Source of the DNA: a virus
DNA: 5,904 nt
Reading direction: 5' to 3' (one strand)
UHGV virus genome: UHGV-1342932
This document shows, in pieces, positions 1,800 to 5,904 of this stretch. How positions within the stretch are numbered: position 1 is the first letter of the stretch; the number at the start of each line of letters is the position of its first letter. The translations under genes and the position numbers were made by a program. Under the pieces are notes generated by a model. The model was not told the DNA's origin, did no database searches, and saw only the letters and a program-made list of their open reading frames with translations.

Positions 1800-1830
1800 A
1801 GTAGGAGAGCATTTCGCCCTCCTACTTTTG
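1800..1830 (+). terminator. rho-independent terminator after the pilot gene
   Basis: An 8-bp perfect stem (AGTAGGAG 1800-1807 pairing with CTCCTACT 1819-1826) encloses an 11-nt loop. It is followed immediately by TTTTG and sits 14 nt after the VP2 stop codon. Confidence 0.55.
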
Positions 1831-1925
1831 TATGGTGTCGCCAACTGCATAGCCCCCAAATTTTTTTTCTTTTTTCTTTTGACAAGCTAAAATTTGGCAT
1901 GGAGTAGATTAGGACAATCAGTTGG

Positions 1926-1962
1926 CATAATTTAATAGAAGCGTAGCGCCTGTTAAATTATG
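1926..1962. promoter_or_regulatory. 10-bp perfect inverted repeat (CATAATTTAA ... TTAAATTATG, 17-nt spacer): candidate protein-binding palindrome or ssDNA hairpin
   Basis: Reading the sequence directly: 1926-1935 is the reverse complement of 1953-1962. Flanking direct repeats TTGGCATAAT (1922-1931) and TTGGCCTAAT (1973-1982) overlap or bracket the palindrome. Confidence 0.35.
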
Positions 1963-1971
1963 GTAACGCCT

Positions 1972-2002
1972 ATTGGCCTAATATACGGAATACCTACCTT
2001 TG
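1972..2002 (+). promoter_or_regulatory. candidate Bacteroidetes-type promoter: -7 TACCTTTG at 1995-2002, weak -33 ATTG at 1972-1975
   Basis: There is an exact TAnnTTTG match at 1995-2002. A TTG-containing element lies 19 nt upstream. The motif sits in the long non-coding region and is oriented toward rep. Confidence 0.3.
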
Positions 2003-2069
2003 CTTTTCAAAATAAATAAGAAATAAAATTTACCATCAGCACACCATATTTAAGAGTAAATTCAGCGCC

Positions 2070-2153
2070 GCCGGAGTGCGAAAAAGGAAATGTCAAAAAC
2101 GTAAAGCAAGCCGTCGTAGCGGCGTGCGTTTTTGATATTTCCCGCGCTCCGGC
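2070..2153 (+). promoter_or_regulatory. GC-rich nested stem-loop element (outer 11-bp stem enclosing a GC hairpin flanked by A5/T5)
   Basis: The outer stem GCCGGAGTGCG (2070-2080) pairs with CGCGCTCCGGC (2143-2153), with one T.G. The inner hairpin is GCAAGCCG (2106-2113) / CGGCGTGC (2120-2127) with loop TCGTAG. AAAAACG (2095-2101) is the reverse complement of CGTTTTT (2127-2133). This is a local GC island in an otherwise AT-rich spacer. Confidence 0.45.
2095..2133 (+). terminator. intrinsic-terminator-like hairpin with T5 (and symmetric A5) inside the rep leader: possible attenuator or bidirectional terminator
   Basis: A GC-rich stem (2106-2127) is followed by GTTTTT (2128-2133). The matching A-tract upstream makes the element symmetric. 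Confidence 0.35.
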
Positions 2154-2273
2154 TAAGCCTCTTCTTACCCTTGTATTTGGATTGTGAAACCACCACTATT
2201 TCCGGAACGGCAAAATCTTCCCCCATCAATTTTGCTCTCTCCTCTTGGCCTACTTATGAAATAGTGACTAACT

Positions 2274-2305
2274 CTTGCATATTTAAGATGTATTTCCTAT
2301 CTTTG
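2274..2305 (+). promoter_or_regulatory. candidate Bacteroidetes-type promoter abutting the rep start: -7 TATCTTTG at 2298-2305, -33-like CTTG at 2274-2277
   Basis: The TAnnTTTG match is exact and ends 4 nt before the rep ATG at 2310. Spacing to the upstream TTG is 20 nt. This would imply a leaderless or near-leaderless rep mRNA. Confidence 0.3.
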
Positions 2306-2309
2306 CACC

Positions 2310-3896
2310 ATGAGTTGCTTGCATCCTATAGAAATTGTAAATGCAGCAGGGAATTTGCTTCATGTTCCTTGTGGAAAGTGTTATGCATGTTTGAATAAGA
2401 AACGCTTTGATAATCAAGCAAAGGTTGACCTTCACATGCAAAAGCACAAGTACAATTTATTCTTCACTGCAACATATTCCGATAGGTATCTCCCTACGTA
2501 CAAAGTGTCTCGTGTGTCTAATTCTCGTATGGTGATAGAGCAAAAAACAGAACGTCAACTTTTTAACGACCCGTTCATGCATAAGCTTTGTTTTACGTAC
2601 AAGTCAGAGGAAGATAAGCGTTTATATGAACTCCCCTTTCAGCGCAAATATCATCCTACTCGTAAAAATAGGCGTGCTCATGTAGGCACTCATTTTGATT
2701 TGATTCATCAACACGACTCCTTCGGTGTTCTTTCAAAAAGAGATATTCAATTATTTTTAAAATCAATACGAAATGAAACAGTTAGAAAACAAAAAGGTGG
2801 AATTCTCCGAGGTTCTTGTAAGTTCTCCTACTATATTTGTGGCGAATATGGACCCGAACGCTTTCGCCCGCATTACCATGGTATCATCAGCACCAACGAT
2901 GAAGAGTTCGCAAAGTTCCTATCCGAAGCTTTACCTAAAATTTGGACATTGGGTGATTTGCGTATCGAGTATTCCAAAGGAAGTTCCGCTGGAAACTATT
3001 GTGCGGGATACGTTAATAGCTTTGCACGTTTACCTAAAATATACAGCTACAAACGTTTTCGGCCTTTCGTCCTCCATTCTACGTACTACGGTTATTCACC
3101 GGCTGAAGACCTTAATAAAGATATCGCAGAAATTACCTATCAATATCTTGCTGAACGAAACTATCTCATTAATGGTAAGTTACGTACAATTTCTCCCTCC
3201 CTTTCGTTTCAACATCATTTATTCCCCCGATGTTTTAGATATGACGAAAGCCCTGGGTATGTCCTTTTCTTACGGTATACACTCGTATCTCGATTGGCTG
3301 ACGCGATTAGGCGCGAATCAGGAGTCTACCCTGAGTCAATCTCTGAAATGATTTCTTATTTAAATACAGGTAGGACAAAATATGATATATCTATTGCTTC
3401 TGGAGGTTATACTCTCAACTATCTTTTTCGTGGCAGCTCTAATATTTCTAGTGCTGTCCGTTCGGCGCTCTATTTATCTTCCCGATTTTTTCGGTTGTGT
3501 GACCGCTACAATCGTTCTCCTCGTGAGTATTTTGATATTATACGACGATATTATGAGGACAAGTCATCCGCAGACTATCTTCGATTTTGTAGGAGTAGAG
3601 CTTCTAGGCCTATAGACTATCCTCTCGAGGACTATGTATTTGATTACACAAATATTTCATCTGAATCTGACCCCGCAATGTATTTGAAATCCGATATTCC
3701 GGACAAACGTTCTTCTTTTAAGCGGCTTTTTTATCTATCTTCATTTCTTGGTAAGGATTTCTACGATTTAGCTAGACATAATTCATCCTTCCAGAATAGC
3801 TATAGGTATAAGGAGCTATATATGAATCATTCTCGCACTTTTGAGAACTCTATAAAACATAAAAAACAAAATGAAAAAAATTGCATTTTTGAATAA
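2310..3896 (+). CDS. rolling-circle replication initiation protein (VP4 / protein A-like), 528 aa
   Basis: The N-terminus carries a Cys cluster (PCGKCYAC). RCR motif 1 is FFTATY (aa 51-56). The HUH motif RPHYHGII (aa 187-193) is at nt 2871-2888. The catalytic YCAGYVNS (aa 230-237, nt 2997-3020) is close to phiX174 A's YVAKYVNK. This is the largest ORF in the window. Confidence 0.9.
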   Translation: MSCLHPIEIVNAAGNLLHVPCGKCYACLNKKRFDNQAKVDLHMQKHKYNLFFTATYSDRYLPTYKVSRVSNSRMVIEQKTERQLFNDPFMHKLCFTYKSEEDKRLYELPFQRKYHPTRKNRRAHVGTHFDLIHQHDSFGVLSKRDIQLFLKSIRNETVRKQKGGILRGSCKFSYYICGEYGPERFRPHYHGIISTNDEEFAKFLSEALPKIWTLGDLRIEYSKGSSAGNYCAGYVNSFARLPKIYSYKRFRPFVLHSTYYGYSPAEDLNKDIAEITYQYLAERNYLINGKLRTISPSLSFQHHLFPRCFRYDESPGYVLFLRYTLVSRLADAIRRESGVYPESISEMISYLNTGRTKYDISIASGGYTLNYLFRGSSNISSAVRSALYLSSRFFRLCDRYNRSPREYFDIIRRYYEDKSSADYLRFCRSRASRPIDYPLEDYVFDYTNISSESDPAMYLKSDIPDKRSSFKRLFYLSSFLGKDFYDLARHNSSFQNSYRYKELYMNHSRTFENSIKHKKQNEKNCIFE

Positions 3897-4149: not shown

Positions 4150-5904
4150 ATGGCAAACATCATGGATTTTAAGTCGGTGAAAAATAACGTTCACCGCGCC
4201 GGGTTTGACCTTTCCTCCCGTATGTGTTTTACTGCAAAGGTTGGAGAGATGCTTCCGGTTAAGTATTGGGATTTATTACCTGGTGACTCCTTTGAAATTG
4301 ATGGTAAAAGTTTTATGCGAACTCTCCCGGTCCAGAAGGCTACATTTGGACGTATTCGCGAGTATTATGATTTTTACTTTGTTCCATACAACCTTCTTTG
4401 GGATAAATTTGAATCATGGATTGTTCAAACTAAAAACGCCTATCACGCTAAAAGCAACCTAGCTGCTGCGGATAATTTTACCACATCTCCGTATTTGACG
4501 GATACTGATATTGTAGGCGCTCATTCTTCAATGGGCTCTAATGAATCTCAAGCGTATCTTGATTATTGGCATGTAGGTACGGATAAAGCAAAATATGCTC
4601 AAGGAGATATGTCAAAACTTCTCACTTATCTTGGCTACCCTGTGACTATAGCTCCTTCCGGTGTAGAGAATGTTGCATTATCCCCATTCCCCCTTTTGGC
4701 ATATCATAAGATATACCAGGACTATTTCCGTTTTTCTCAATGGGAAGACGCTGCTCCTTGGACTTATAATCTGGATTATATCCTATCCGAAGATAAACTC
4801 CATATGGACATACCCGGCATGATGAAAGGCCGTACAGGTAATACGCCGACAATTTTCACTCTCCATCATGTAAATTTTGACAAAGACCTTGTAAATGGTA
4901 TGCTTCCTCAGCCCCAGTATGGCGATGTTGCTATAGCTGGTCCACTTACAGGTGATTTTTCAGGACTTAGTGCTGTTTGGGCTACATCTGGCAATTCTAA
5001 AGACCTTGTAGTTAACGCTTCTGCACATCAATCTGGCCATGAATTCTTCCCGGCAGGTTATGATTCAAAATCTACTACTACTGGATCCGGTATAGACCCG
5101 GTTAAATTCCGTTTAAATGGGTATTCCGGCTCGCCTGTTAATGTTGTATTAAATCAGGTTCACCCCCATAATACACCATTTAACCTTCCTATTTCTGGCT
5201 CAAATATCTCTGCTGGTCTTTCAATACTTGTTCTCCGTCAAGCTGAAGCCCTCCAGAAGTGGAAGGAAATTACGCTTTCTGGAGACTCCGATTATAAAGA
5301 ACAGATTAGCAAGCATTGGAATGTTCCATCGTCTCAGTATAATTCATATCGTTGTCAATATCTCGGTGGTTTCGCCCGTAATCTTGATGTATCCGAGGTA
5401 ATTAATACCAATCTTCAAGGAGAAGAAGGCGTTGCCGATATTGCCGGTCGAGGTCTTTCTGCTTCTAATGGTAAGATTCACTTCAAAAACAATGACCTTT
5501 ACGGTATAATAATGTGTATCTATCATGCAAAACCTCTTGTAGAATGGAATTCATTGAATATACTCCATCCCTGCTTGACAAAGGTAAAATCTACGGATTA
5601 TGCTATTCCTGAGTTTGATAGTATTGGTATGCAGCCTCTTCTTCGTTTGAATATTATGTACGCTGGAAATTCTCCTACGGTTCCCGCAGGTTATGTTCCT
5701 CGCTATGCTGAATATAAGACGGATTTGGATATGTACAAAGGTTCTTTTGCAACAACGAATGTGAATTGGATTCTGCCCCACACCCTTACTACGGTTAGTC
5801 AGACACAAGCCCCACTCACTTATCGTGCGTTCAAGGTACCCCCTACGATTTGTGATAATATGTTTATCGCAAAAGTTGATAATACAACAAGTACAGACCA
5901 ATTG
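4150..5904 (+). CDS. major capsid protein (VP1/F-like), 3'-partial; at least 585 codons open to the window edge; alternative start at 4162
   Basis: The frame is stop-free from the ATG at 4150 to the last base of the window. Characteristic Microviridae VP1 blocks are present: LPGDSFEIDG, FPLLAYHKIYQDYFR, SILVLRQAEALQKWKEI, GVADIAGRG and YGIIMCIYHAKPLVEW. The ORF is absent from the supplied ORF track only because no stop occurs inside the window. Confidence 0.93.
   Translation, partial: MANIMDFKSVKNNVHRAGFDLSSRMCFTAKVGEMLPVKYWDLLPGDSFEIDGKSFMRTLPVQKATFGRIREYYDFYFVPYNLLWDKFESWIVQTKNAYHAKSNLAAADNFTTSPYLTDTDIVGAHSSMGSNESQAYLDYWHVGTDKAKYAQGDMSKLLTYLGYPVTIAPSGVENVALSPFPLLAYHKIYQDYFRFSQWEDAAPWTYNLDYILSEDKLHMDIPGMMKGRTGNTPTIFTLHHVNFDKDLVNGMLPQPQYGDVAIAGPLTGDFSGLSAVWATSGNSKDLVVNASAHQSGHEFFPAGYDSKSTTTGSGIDPVKFRLNGYSGSPVNVVLNQVHPHNTPFNLPISGSNISAGLSILVLRQAEALQKWKEITLSGDSDYKEQISKHWNVPSSQYNSYRCQYLGGFARNLDVSEVINTNLQGEEGVADIAGRGLSASNGKIHFKNNDLYGIIMCIYHAKPLVEWNSLNILHPCLTKVKSTDYAIPEFDSIGMQPLLRLNIMYAGNSPTVPAGYVPRYAEYKTDLDMYKGSFATTNVNWILPHTLTTVSQTQAPLTYRAFKVPPTICDNMFIAKVDNTTSTDQL

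What the first reader, a model, noticed from the sequence alone, without database searches (positions are those of the whole stretch)
2065..2153. GC-rich nested hairpin: candidate complementary-strand origin or rep leader attenuator
The outer 11-bp stem (2070-2080 with 2143-2153) encloses a perfect inner hairpin (2106-2127) bracketed by A5CG / CGT5. The local GC content is far above that of the surrounding AT-rich spacer. In ssDNA phages (phiX174 n' / primosome assembly site, filamentous-phage minus-strand origin), stable hairpins in the packaged strand recruit host priming machinery for second-strand synthesis, and this is the only strongly structured element in the window. The element also lies downstream of a TAnnTTTG motif (1995-2002) and upstream of rep. 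The inner hairpin plus T5 could therefore act as an intrinsic terminator or attenuator limiting rep expression, or mark the 3' end of a ~120-nt leader or small RNA.
Basis: partly seen in the sequence, partly recalled or inferred. Interest (0 to 1): 0.6.

Follow-up and report, generated by a model that had tools for sequence, protein, structure and literature searches.

The report
Swappable long hairpin upstream of microvirus rep
The hairpin is real and is the most stable fold in this small gut-phage genome; related phages keep a long hairpin at the same spot while changing or replacing its sequence, which best fits a start signal for copying the packaged single strand, though this is untested.

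Summary
The window is one complete 5904-nt circular Microviridae genome from human gut. Positions 2070-2153 form a single 34-pair interrupted hairpin. As ssDNA it folds at -31.5 kcal/mol (z -5.9), and it is the most stable 100-nt window in the genome.

About 25 distinct relatives (Rep 78-100% identical) all carry a long hairpin in the same slot, in three mutually unrelated sequence versions of similar stability. In the commonest version, 99% of pair cells stay paired and 8 pairs show double changes (0/500 shuffles). G.T wobbles outnumber mismatches, so the + (viral/mRNA-sense) strand is the one that folds.

A canonical Bacteroides-type promoter sits directly before rep, downstream of the hairpin. 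Relatives have no T-run after their hairpins. There is no dif-like site, no prophage copy and no Rfam match.

Best reading (about 0.4): a structure-specified signal for complementary-strand synthesis on the SSB-coated viral strand, like a primosome assembly site or a plasmid single-strand origin. It lies just upstream of a conserved candidate + origin.

Caveat: a neighbouring 175-nt hairpin (1858-2031) matches single-strand-origin architecture even better, and an RNA-level role is not excluded. The attenuator/terminator reading is not supported.

The parts
2070..2153 (+). The finding: long interrupted hairpin ('H2, type A'). It has 34 pairs, three of them G.T wobbles.
   Evidence: It is the most stable 100-nt window of the genome and is identical in 3 further independent assemblies.
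2070..2080 (+). 5' arm of the outer 11-pair stem. It pairs with 2143-2153. The flanks appear homologous to sequences that lie about 250 nt apart in relatives.
2081..2085 (+). A5 bulge on the 5' arm.
2086..2101 (+). 5' arm of the 16-pair middle helix. It pairs with 2127-2142 and includes the A5CG/CGT5 pairing.
   Evidence: (I2).
2107..2126 (+). Apical hairpin: 2107-2108/2125-2126 plus 2110-2114/2119-2123, with loop 2115-2118. It carries CGTAGCG (2115-2121).
   Evidence: In one search, CGTAGCG occurs twice in the window against 0.26 expected, both times at a hairpin apex.
2032..2047 (+). ACCATCAGCAC-ACCAT, a conserved motif 13-37 nt 5' of the hairpin in all relatives. It is expanded to 6-8 tandem 11-nt copies in type B genomes.
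1858..2031 (+). Neighbouring ~175-nt imperfect hairpin ('5' module'). The inner hairpin 1921-1967 has AAGCGTAGCG (1939-1948) at its apex. The 3' arm carries the -7 box TACCTTTG (1995-2002). This is a rival or partner candidate for the complementary-strand origin.
   Evidence: I1, I3.: -34.7 kcal/mol, z -6.0; minus strand -30.2; 97.5% identical among relatives, against 88-91% for coding DNA.
2194..2266 (+). Conserved structured block 'H3': outer stem 2194-2202/2258-2266, CCGGAACGG at 2202-2210, inner hairpin 2209-2216/2229-2236 with loop CTTCCCCCATCA (2217-2228). It is a candidate + strand origin / Rep site, lying 40 nt downstream of the hairpin.
   Evidence: 98% identical; compensatory GCGAAAT/ATTTCGC, and the same architecture in L044 whose Rep is 35% identical; not coding.
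2274..2305 (+). Promoter-like P2: CTTG-N20-TATCTTTG, ending 4 nt before the rep ATG at 2310 (TTTG-N20-TATATTTG in relatives).
1800..1830 (+). Terminator-like hairpin plus T-run directly after VP2, conserved in all relatives.
   Evidence: I14; 97% identical.
2310..3896 (+). rep (HUH replication initiator, PF23343).

Best explanation
The hairpin is a structure-specified signal on the packaged (+) single strand that helps start complementary-strand synthesis.

Proposed mechanism (all steps inferred):
1. After entry, host SSB coats the ssDNA circle.
2. The 34-pair hairpin stays duplex and, with its single-stranded flanks, looks like an abandoned fork or a duplex landing pad.
3. Host priming machinery binds there: most likely a PriA-type restart primosome, alternatively primase or RNA polymerase.
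4. That machinery lays down the primer that converts the circle into the double-stranded replicative form.

What is shown here: the fold, its strand specificity, its conservation by structure alone, its cassette-like replacement, and its position just upstream of a candidate + origin. What is inferred: the recruitment of priming proteins and their identity.

The hairpin may act together with, or as an alternative to, the neighbouring 175-nt hairpin at 1858-2031.
For: 1. Stability is far above chance, and the hairpin is the top-ranked fold in the genome.

2. All ~25 distinct relatives have a long hairpin in the same slot, in three unrelated sequence versions of similar stability: -27 to -31.5 kcal/mol, z -5.9 to -8.

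3. Type C alignment (15 sequences): 99% of cells are paired, 8 pairs changed on both sides, and 0/500 shuffles reach this. Slid registers pair only 24-44%. Yet the stem's nucleotide identity (87.6%) is no higher than coding DNA (88-91%). Structure is selected, not sequence.

4. In the 20 core stem pairs, 10 columns carry G.T wobbles against 2 with mismatches. The window hairpin is 4.4 kcal/mol better on the + strand. The + strand folds, so this is not a dsDNA palindrome and not the minus strand.

5. PriA recognises the phiX174 pas as a fork-like hairpin structure (PMC5778457). This fits an element whose sequence is free but whose shape is not.

6. Known single-strand origins lie upstream of the double-strand origin and are strand-specific cassettes (PMC5703833; PMC10378824). 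Here the hairpin lies 40 nt upstream of the most conserved non-coding block, H3.

7. The apex carries TAGCG(G). Type C apices carry TAGCGT, which equals CS-6 of ssoA.

8. In 82 diverse microvirus contigs, 39 of the 42 strongest hairpins (z < -4) lie in non-coding DNA, which makes up about 20% of those genomes. Long hairpins upstream of rep with compensatory changes were reported in other microvirus clades (PMC9865509).
Against: - There is no experiment, and the host is unknown.
- The same region holds a 175-nt hairpin (1858-2031) with TAGCG at its apex and a promoter box in its stem. It matches single-strand-origin architecture better and could be the real minus-strand origin.
- Type B hairpins lack the TAGCG apex motif.
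- RS_B of ssoA is absent, and there is no alignable similarity to the phiX174 or G4 origins.
- The hairpin is on the mRNA-sense strand and may be transcribed from the TACCTTTG box or by read-through. The five apex-proximal pairs of type C are mostly G.T, which are better pairs in RNA than in DNA.
- Type A itself is invariant in 4 samples, so its own stems cannot be tested for covariation.
- Template-switch correction within quasi-palindromes can mimic compensatory change.
Confidence: 0.4

Rival explanations
1. RNA-level element. The hairpin is transcribed, from the TACCTTTG box at 1995-2002 or by read-through from the structural genes. As a 25-35-bp RNA duplex it would act as an RNase III processing site, a stabiliser, or an insulator between the late genes and rep.
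For: - The folded strand is mRNA-sense.
- The RNA fold is -53.9 kcal/mol, z -6.8.
- A conserved TAnnTTTG box lies 68 nt upstream.
- All three versions exceed two helical turns, which is what RNase III needs (established knowledge).
- G.U-rich apex-proximal pairs are kept in type C.
Against: - Genomes with the alternative 5' module have no TAnnTTTG box upstream of the hairpin apart from the one overlapping the VP2 terminator.
- A conserved terminator-like hairpin follows VP2.
- rep has its own canonical promoter downstream of the hairpin.
- There is no Rfam family.
Confidence: 0.22
2. Part of the + strand origin architecture. The hairpin, together with the adjacent ACCATCAGCAC repeats, would help Rep bind or melt the origin (a cruciform or iteron-plus-stem-loop arrangement as in pMV158, pT181 or CRESS-DNA viruses).
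For: - The ACCATYAGCAC motif always lies 13-37 nt 5' of the hairpin. It is amplified to 6-8 tandem 11-nt copies in type B genomes.
- The candidate origin block H3 is close by.
Against: - The loops and stems of types A, B and C are unrelated, although Reps of A and B genomes are 96-97% identical. No shared nick or recognition sequence therefore exists in the hairpin.
- The wobble pattern shows single-strand folding, not a dsDNA palindrome.
- The distance to H3 varies from about 35 to about 190 nt.
Confidence: 0.12
3. Intrinsic terminator or attenuator limiting rep expression. The inner hairpin plus T5 would stop transcripts coming from upstream.
For: The consensus scan flags GCCGTCGTAGCGGC followed by GTGCGTTTTT.
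Against: - Two such sites were found in the region, against 0.9 +/- 1.1 in shuffles.
- T5 is paired with A5 in the full hairpin.
- The full hairpin is followed by TAAGCCTC.
- Type B and C hairpins have no T-run.
- The rep promoter is downstream of the hairpin.
Confidence: 0.07
4. No dedicated function. The element would be a quasi-palindrome created and kept perfect by template switching during rolling-circle or lagging-strand synthesis, or an inserted selfish palindromic element in a tolerant spacer.
For: - There is cassette-like turnover and neighbouring deletions and insertions.
- The hairpin's sequence divergence is about the same as coding DNA.
- Type A is confined to one strain.
Against: - Every one of ~25 genomes keeps a hairpin of similar size and stability in the same slot, even where the adjacent 140 nt are deleted (window, L033, L029).
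- Wobbles are tolerated on one strand only.
- The type A sequence was not found elsewhere in IMG/VR.
Confidence: 0.08
5. Folded attP for host XerC/XerD, as in CTX phage, allowing integration at dif as proposed for Bacteroidetes microviruses.
For: - Alpavirinae-type prophages have their att site in the VP2-rep spacer (PMC3091885).
- A distant relative, L041, is integrated with dif-like att repeats in that spacer.
Against: - The window's best match to the dif consensus has 6 mismatches, no better than shuffles. The L041 control scores 4.
- No integrated copy of this clade was found in 185,579 species genomes, either by the conserved DNA block or by Rep.
- The hairpin sequence is not conserved.
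Confidence: 0.03

Closest known systems
phiX174 primosome assembly site (n'/PriA recognition hairpin, F-G intergenic region)
   Same: Both are stable hairpins on the packaged strand in a non-coding spacer of a microvirus. Recognition of the phiX174 site is described as structural, a fork-like hairpin (PMC5778457). That matches conservation of shape but not sequence here.
   Different: - There is no alignable sequence similarity.
- The phiX174 hairpin is shorter and weaker: the F-G intergenic region (2285-2394) that holds the 44-nt hairpin folds at -17.1 kcal/mol over 110 nt, against 84 nt of hairpin and -31.5 kcal/mol over 101 nt here.
- It lies between the capsid and spike genes, not upstream of rep.
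- The host here is probably Bacteroidales, inferred from promoter boxes.
- Function here is untested.
ssoA-type single-strand origins of rolling-circle plasmids
   Same: Both are strand- and orientation-specific imperfect hairpins in non-coding DNA upstream of the double-strand origin. Both are exchanged between replicons as cassettes. Both carry a TAGCG-type motif at the terminal loop (CS-6 = TAGCGT/A).
   Different: - This element is 84 nt rather than ~160 nt.
- RS_B is absent.
- The window apex is TAGCGG (5 of 6 positions), and type B has no such motif.
- ssoA is known from Firmicutes and is primed by RNA polymerase.
- The neighbouring 1858-2031 hairpin fits this family's architecture better than the finding does.
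Long hairpins upstream of rep in reekeekee- and roodoodoo-microviruses (PMC9865509)
   Same: Both are long predicted ssDNA hairpins between the last structural gene and rep, with compensatory substitutions. The authors proposed, and could not certify, a role in negative-strand initiation.
   Different: The clades are unrelated. There, the loop sequence is conserved and the stems are 72% identical. Here, whole hairpins are replaced by unrelated sequences among genomes with 83-100% identical Rep.
Filamentous-phage minus-strand origin and ssDNA promoters (M13/f1 ori(-), F plasmid Frpo)
   Same: In both cases hairpins stay duplex on SSB-coated ssDNA and recruit host RNA polymerase to make a primer (established knowledge).
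   Different: No promoter-like boxes were found in the stems of the finding. Such a box (TACCTTTG) is present in the stem of the neighbouring 1858-2031 hairpin.
Rho-independent terminator
   Same: A GC-rich hairpin, and in this genome an inner stem followed by T5.
   Different: The T5 is paired, there is no T-run after the complete hairpin, and none exists in relatives.

Membership tests
ssoA-type single-strand origin | Extensively paired, strand-specific hairpin on the displaced strand in non-coding DNA upstream of the double-strand origin. | tested here: met
   Fold. Plus-strand-specific wobbles. The hairpin lies 40 nt upstream of the conserved block H3; that H3 is the + origin is an inference.
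ssoA-type single-strand origin | RS_B consensus (TTATGCCGAGAAAATTT). | tested here: not met
   No match with up to 3 mismatches anywhere in the window.
ssoA-type single-strand origin | CS-6 (TAGCGT/A) in the terminal loop. | tested here: inconclusive
   The window apex has TAGCGG (2117-2122). Type C apices have TAGCGT. Type B has none. The motif is only 5-6 nt long.
ssoA-type single-strand origin | RNA-polymerase-dependent primer RNA made on the folded strand. | not testable with these tools
   This needs in vitro priming.
phiX174-type primosome assembly site | Stable hairpin giving a fork-like structure on the SSB-coated viral strand. | tested here: met
   Structure only. SSB resistance is inferred from the stability.
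phiX174-type primosome assembly site | Sequence relatedness to the phiX174 pas. | tested here: not met
   The two sequences were compared by eye only; no alignment tool was run, and no alignable similarity was seen. Only the short motif AAGCGNAGCG is shared, and with the neighbouring hairpin H1 and type C loops, not with this hairpin.
phiX174-type primosome assembly site | PriA binding / ATPase activation and DnaB loading. | not testable with these tools
   This is biochemical.
Intrinsic terminator | U/T-run immediately 3' of the hairpin. | tested here: not met
   The full hairpin is followed by TAAGCCTC. The inner T5 is paired to A5. Relatives have ATGAGTTC / ATGACTTC.
XerCD dif-like attachment site | 28-bp dif-like motif, and integrated copies flanked by repeats. 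| tested here: not met
   Best dif-consensus match has 6 mismatches, equal to shuffles, while the L041 control scores 4. No integrated relatives were found.
Stem-loop + strand origin (CRESS / pMV158 type) | Conserved nick sequence in the loop, shared by genomes with the same Rep. | tested here: not met
   The loops of types A, B and C are unrelated, although the Reps are 96-100% identical between A and B.
Described structured RNA family (Rfam 15) | Match reaching the family's gathering score. | tested here: not met
   Nothing in the region at E <= 1. In relatives there were only far sub-threshold generic hairpin (miRNA model) matches. No tRNA or tmRNA.

The most novel reading that the evidence does not exclude
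The VP2-rep spacer of this gut microvirus clade may carry two interchangeable kinds of complementary-strand origin cassette.

1. A 175-nt hairpin (1858-2031) whose stem turns a Bacteroides -7 box (TACCTTTG) into a double-stranded promoter on the folded single strand. The box is oriented so that the other arm is the template, which would make it an ssDNA promoter/primer start.
2. The long hairpin of the finding, acting as a fork mimic.

In this reading, a loop motif of tandem NAGCG pentamers (AAGCG-N-AGCG) is a priming-related signal shared with the phiX174 primosome-assembly region and CS-6 of plasmid ssoA. Swapping these cassettes would tune host range.
Probability: 0.12. Interest if true: 0.7.

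Novelty: new member of a known kind. Interest (0 to 1): 0.42.

Why it matters
How gut microviruses (Alpavirinae-like and other uncultured clades) convert their packaged single strand into duplex DNA is unknown. All mechanistic knowledge comes from a few coliphages.

This clade offers a natural experiment. The same genome backbone carries three unrelated hairpins of equal stability at one position, and two alternative upstream modules. That makes the requirement directly testable with synthetic genomes or ssDNA priming assays: is it shape only, shape plus an apex motif, or host specificity?

If the hairpins are host-machinery entry sites, they may be host-range determinants. They would also be useful markers for annotating non-coding control regions in the thousands of metagenomic microvirus genomes.

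Tried and rejected
- Rfam scan of the window and of four relatives: nothing meaningful.
- tRNA/tmRNA scan: none.
- Megablast and blastn against GenBank phages: no DNA match. The nearest named Reps are below 30% identical, so no annotated homologue exists to borrow from.
- Exact search for the type A hairpin in IMG/VR: only the source contig. Look-up by the exact VP2 gave three more assemblies, but they are the same strain (99.9-100% identical), so covariation cannot be tested on type A itself.
- dif-consensus scan: no better than shuffles.
- Prophage searches in species-representative genomes, by conserved DNA block and by Rep: none.
- RS_B search: none.
- Family-wide strand asymmetry: the + strand is the more stable at the top hairpin in only 37 of 82 diverse microviruses, so the asymmetry seen in this clade does not generalise.
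- Unbiased 5-mer enrichment near the top hairpins of 61 diverse genomes is dominated by GC-rich words. AAGCG is enriched only 2.2x and TAGCG 3.6x, with their reverse complements similar. The apex motif is therefore not a family-wide signature at that resolution.
- The 10-mer AAGCGNAGCG occurs 8 times on the + strand and 0 on the minus strand, against 2.4 and 1.0 expected. Coding bias may contribute, so I kept it as a lead only.
- My recollection that PriA effector sites share AAGCGG could not be confirmed in the paper library.
- Reading the conserved 3' block as an N-terminal extension of Rep (587-aa gene calls in relatives) was rejected. Spacing to the ATG is 116 nt in some genomes and 118 nt in others, and in the window and the type B genomes the in-frame translation has stops.

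Full report
**What the window is.** The 5904 nt are one complete circular Microviridae genome.
- Genes, all on the + strand: a Phage_F capsid gene (4150-5904, continuing 1-66), a 149-aa ORF, a 367-aa VP2-like ORF (683-1786), an HUH Rep (2310-3896, PF23343) and an 85-aa ORF.
- Three other assemblies join position 5904 to position 1.
- The finding lies in the only long non-coding stretch, 1787-2309, between VP2 and rep.
- GenBank phages hold no DNA match, and their Reps are below 30% identical.
- Close relatives come from human-gut metagenomes.

**The observation.** Positions 2070-2153 form one interrupted hairpin of 34 pairs.
- Anatomy: 11 pairs (2070-2080/2143-2153), an A5 bulge, 16 pairs (2086-2101/2127-2142), a 5-nt internal loop, then 2 + 5 apical pairs around loop 2115-2118. 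Three pairs are G.T.
- Energy as DNA: -31.5 kcal/mol against -15.8 +/- 2.7 for shuffles (z -5.9, 0/200). As RNA: -53.9 (z -6.8). The minus strand gives only -27.1.
- Among all 100-nt windows of the genome it ranks first (mean -7.8 +/- 3.2).
- GC is 56%, against 29% just upstream and 40% genome-wide.
- It is not the only strong structure: 1850-2040 folds into a single ~175-nt hairpin at -34.7 kcal/mol, z -6.0.
- The sequence is identical in three independent assemblies, so it is not an artefact.

**Relatives.** Protein- and DNA-pattern searches gave about 25 distinct genomes with Rep 78-100% identical. Their VP2-rep spacers are mosaics of units:
- a terminator-like hairpin after VP2;
- a ~190-nt '5' module' (window 1845-2031) that is 97.5% identical among 12 genomes whose coding DNA is 88-91% identical, but which five genomes replace with an unrelated, GC-rich multi-hairpin module;
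- a short conserved motif ACCATYAGCAC;
- a long hairpin;
- an optional ~140-nt segment, the least conserved (79%), absent from the window and from L033;
- an 80-nt block, H3, that is 98% identical;
- a promoter-like element abutting the rep ATG.

**The hairpin slot.** Every genome has a long hairpin here, in three versions that share no sequence:
- type A: the window's strain only;
- type B: GACACTCGGGGTGGGGC...GCCCCACCCCGAGTGTC;
- type C: the majority, with a 25-pair stem.

All three have similar stability as ssDNA: -27.4, -30.0 and -31.5 kcal/mol per 100 nt, z -5.9 to -8.1.

For type C (15 distinct sequences), 99% of pair cells are standard pairs. Eight pairs have changes on both sides (17 cells), and no shuffle in 500 reaches these values. 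Registers slid by 1-3 columns pair only 24-44%. The stem's nucleotide identity (87.6%) is like that of coding DNA, so shape is kept, not sequence.

In the 20 core pairs, 10 columns carry G.T wobbles and only 2 carry mismatches. Transitions that would be wobbles on the minus strand are avoided. The + strand therefore folds as a single strand. This excludes a dsDNA palindrome or a minus-strand RNA. It does not separate packaged ssDNA from mRNA-sense RNA.

One caveat: template switching within quasi-palindromes can produce paired changes without selection. It does not explain three unrelated hairpins of equal strength kept in one slot.

**What it is not.**
- Terminator or attenuator. The tool flags the inner stem plus GTGCGTTTTT, but that T5 is paired with A5 and the complete hairpin is followed by TAAGCCTC. 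Type B and C hairpins are followed by ATGACTTC and ATGAGTTC.
- rep leader. rep has its own canonical Bacteroides-type promoter downstream of the hairpin: TTTG-N20-TATATTTG in relatives and CTTG-N20-TATCTTTG in the window, ending 4 nt before the ATG. rep mRNA made from it does not contain the hairpin.
- Rep nick site. Type A and B genomes have 96-97% identical Reps but unrelated loops.
- dif-like attachment site. The best consensus match (6 mismatches) equals shuffles, whereas an integrated distant relative, L041, scores 4 at its att repeat. No integrated copy of this clade exists in 185,579 species genomes.
- Known RNA family. There is no Rfam family, tRNA or conserved ORF.

**Most likely mechanism.** The pattern is free sequence, fixed shape and strength, + strand specificity, cassette exchange, and a position in the control region. 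That is what is expected of a host-machinery entry site for complementary-strand synthesis.
- PriA is described as recognising the phiX174 primosome assembly site as a fork-like hairpin (PMC5778457).
- Plasmid single-strand origins are strand-specific hairpin cassettes placed upstream of the double-strand origin (PMC5703833, PMC10378824).
- Here the hairpin lies 40 nt upstream of H3.
- Across 82 diverse microvirus contigs, 39 of the 42 strongest hairpins lie in non-coding DNA, which is about 20% of those genomes.
- Similar hairpins upstream of rep, with compensatory changes, were reported in other microvirus clades and tentatively linked to negative-strand initiation (PMC9865509).

I put this reading at about 0.4. 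The binding proteins are inferred, not shown.

**Why not higher.**
- The neighbouring 175-nt hairpin (1858-2031) is a better architectural match to ssoA-type origins. It is about 175 nt long. TAGCG sits at the apex (GCG-TAG-CGC, 1940-1948). A -7 box, TACCTTTG, lies in the 3' arm, becomes double-stranded on folding, and points so that the 5' arm is the template. It also favours the + strand (-34.7 against -30.2). It may be the real minus-strand origin, leaving the finding as a second origin or something else.
- RS_B is absent.
- The apex motif is short. CGTAGCG occurs twice in the window against 0.26 expected, both times at hairpin apices, but type B lacks it.
- An RNA role (RNase III site, stabiliser, insulator) remains open, because the strand is mRNA-sense and a TAnnTTTG box lies upstream. 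I give it about 0.22. It is weakened because genomes with the alternative 5' module have no such box.

**Side findings.**
- H3 (2194-2266) has an outer stem CACTATTTC/GAAATAGTG, an invariant CCGGAACGG, and an inner hairpin whose stem shows a compensatory change (GCAAAAT/ATTTTGC to GCGAAAT/ATTTCGC) in three lineages. The same architecture with different stem sequences occurs in L044, whose Rep is only 35% identical.
- The H3 loop CTTCCCCCATCA resembles loops such as CTTCCTTGATA in L090 and the phiX174 origin context CCCCCAACTTGATA. I take H3 as the candidate + origin. It is not coding, because its frame relative to rep differs between genomes.
- The 10-mer AAGCGNAGCG sits at the apex of H1 and of type C hairpins. 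It occurs once in phiX174, on the + strand just 3' of the F-G hairpin. It lies next to strong non-coding hairpins in several unrelated microviruses. It occurs 8 times on the + strand and 0 on the minus strand, against 2.4 and 1.0 expected, in 80 diverse contigs. An unbiased 5-mer test did not single it out, so it stays a lead.

**Verdict.** The origin-type interpretation is plausible and is the best available. The attenuator interpretation is not supported. This is a new member of a known kind: structured non-coding hairpins of ssDNA replicons, most likely priming signals. The unusual and testable feature is the cassette-like replacement among near-identical genomes.

Noticed in passing
window 1858-2031 (inner hairpin 1921-1967; apex 1939-1948; box 1995-2002): A ~175-nt imperfect hairpin on the + strand (-34.7 kcal/mol, z -6.0) with AAGCGTAGCG at its apex and the Bacteroides -7 box TACCTTTG in its 3' arm. 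On folded ssDNA the box would be double-stranded and oriented to copy the 5' arm, which is possible ssDNA promoter/primer-start logic. It is 97.5% identical among relatives, more than coding DNA, yet five genomes replace it wholesale with an unrelated GC-rich multi-hairpin module.
   Followed up: partly
window 2194-2266 (CCGGAACGG 2202-2210; loop 2217-2228): This is the most conserved non-coding block (98%). It is a nested hairpin with a compensatory change in three lineages, and the same architecture occurs in a genome whose Rep is only 35% identical (L044 about 3222-3301). The loop CTTCCCCCATCA resembles nick-site-like loops in L090 and L104 and the phiX174 origin context. It is a candidate + strand origin.
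   Followed up: partly
window 2274-2312: A canonical Bacteroides-type promoter (TTTG-like box, N20, TAnnTTTG) ends 4 nt before the rep ATG. This implies a leaderless or nearly leaderless rep mRNA and points to a Bacteroidales host.
   Followed up: no
L002 2580-2665, L040 1-70, L035 ends; window 2032-2047: The 11-nt motif ACCATCAGCAC is amplified to 6-8 tandem, slightly diverged copies immediately 5' of the hairpin in type B genomes. The window has about 1.5 copies. The array is iteron-like, and contigs tend to break in it.
   Followed up: no
L127 (phiX174) 2356-2365; L060 138-147 and 185-193; L062 6922-6931; L092 2856-2865; L104 582-591; L083 1790-1799: AAGCG-N-AGCG (tandem NAGCG) lies next to strong non-coding hairpins in unrelated microviruses, and once in phiX174 just 3' of the F-G hairpin. 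L092 AAGCGTAGCGCGCTAGGG closely resembles phiX174 AAGCGAAGCGCGGTAGG. Counts in 80 contigs: 8 on the + strand and 0 on the minus strand, against 2.4 and 1.0 expected.
   Followed up: partly
L041 7588-7658 and 14020-14090; 13530-13587/13946-14003: A distant relative (Rep 33% identical over half its length) is integrated in a bacterial contig. It is flanked by 71-nt direct repeats that contain a dif-like site (TTTTCATATAATCGGTATTATGTAAAAT). A perfect 58-bp inverted repeat and CAGTTGTAAGTCT repeats lie next to attR. Assemblies break at the repeat.
   Followed up: partly
L068-L120 group (Rep about 24% identical), e.g. L091 about 1230-1330: In this group the strongest hairpin lies about 1 kb after the rep start. 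It is up to 10 kcal/mol more stable on the minus strand than on the gene-sense strand, the opposite of the clade studied here.
   Followed up: no
L033 ends; L042 end: Assemblies terminate inside the long hairpins or inverted repeats, so such elements are probably under-represented or truncated in metagenomic microvirus contigs.
   Followed up: no
relatives' rep gene calls (P0003 and others, 587 aa): Public gene calls extend Rep by 59 residues across the conserved block H3 in type C genomes. The extension is an artefact of an accidentally open frame (116 vs 118 nt spacing).
   Followed up: yes
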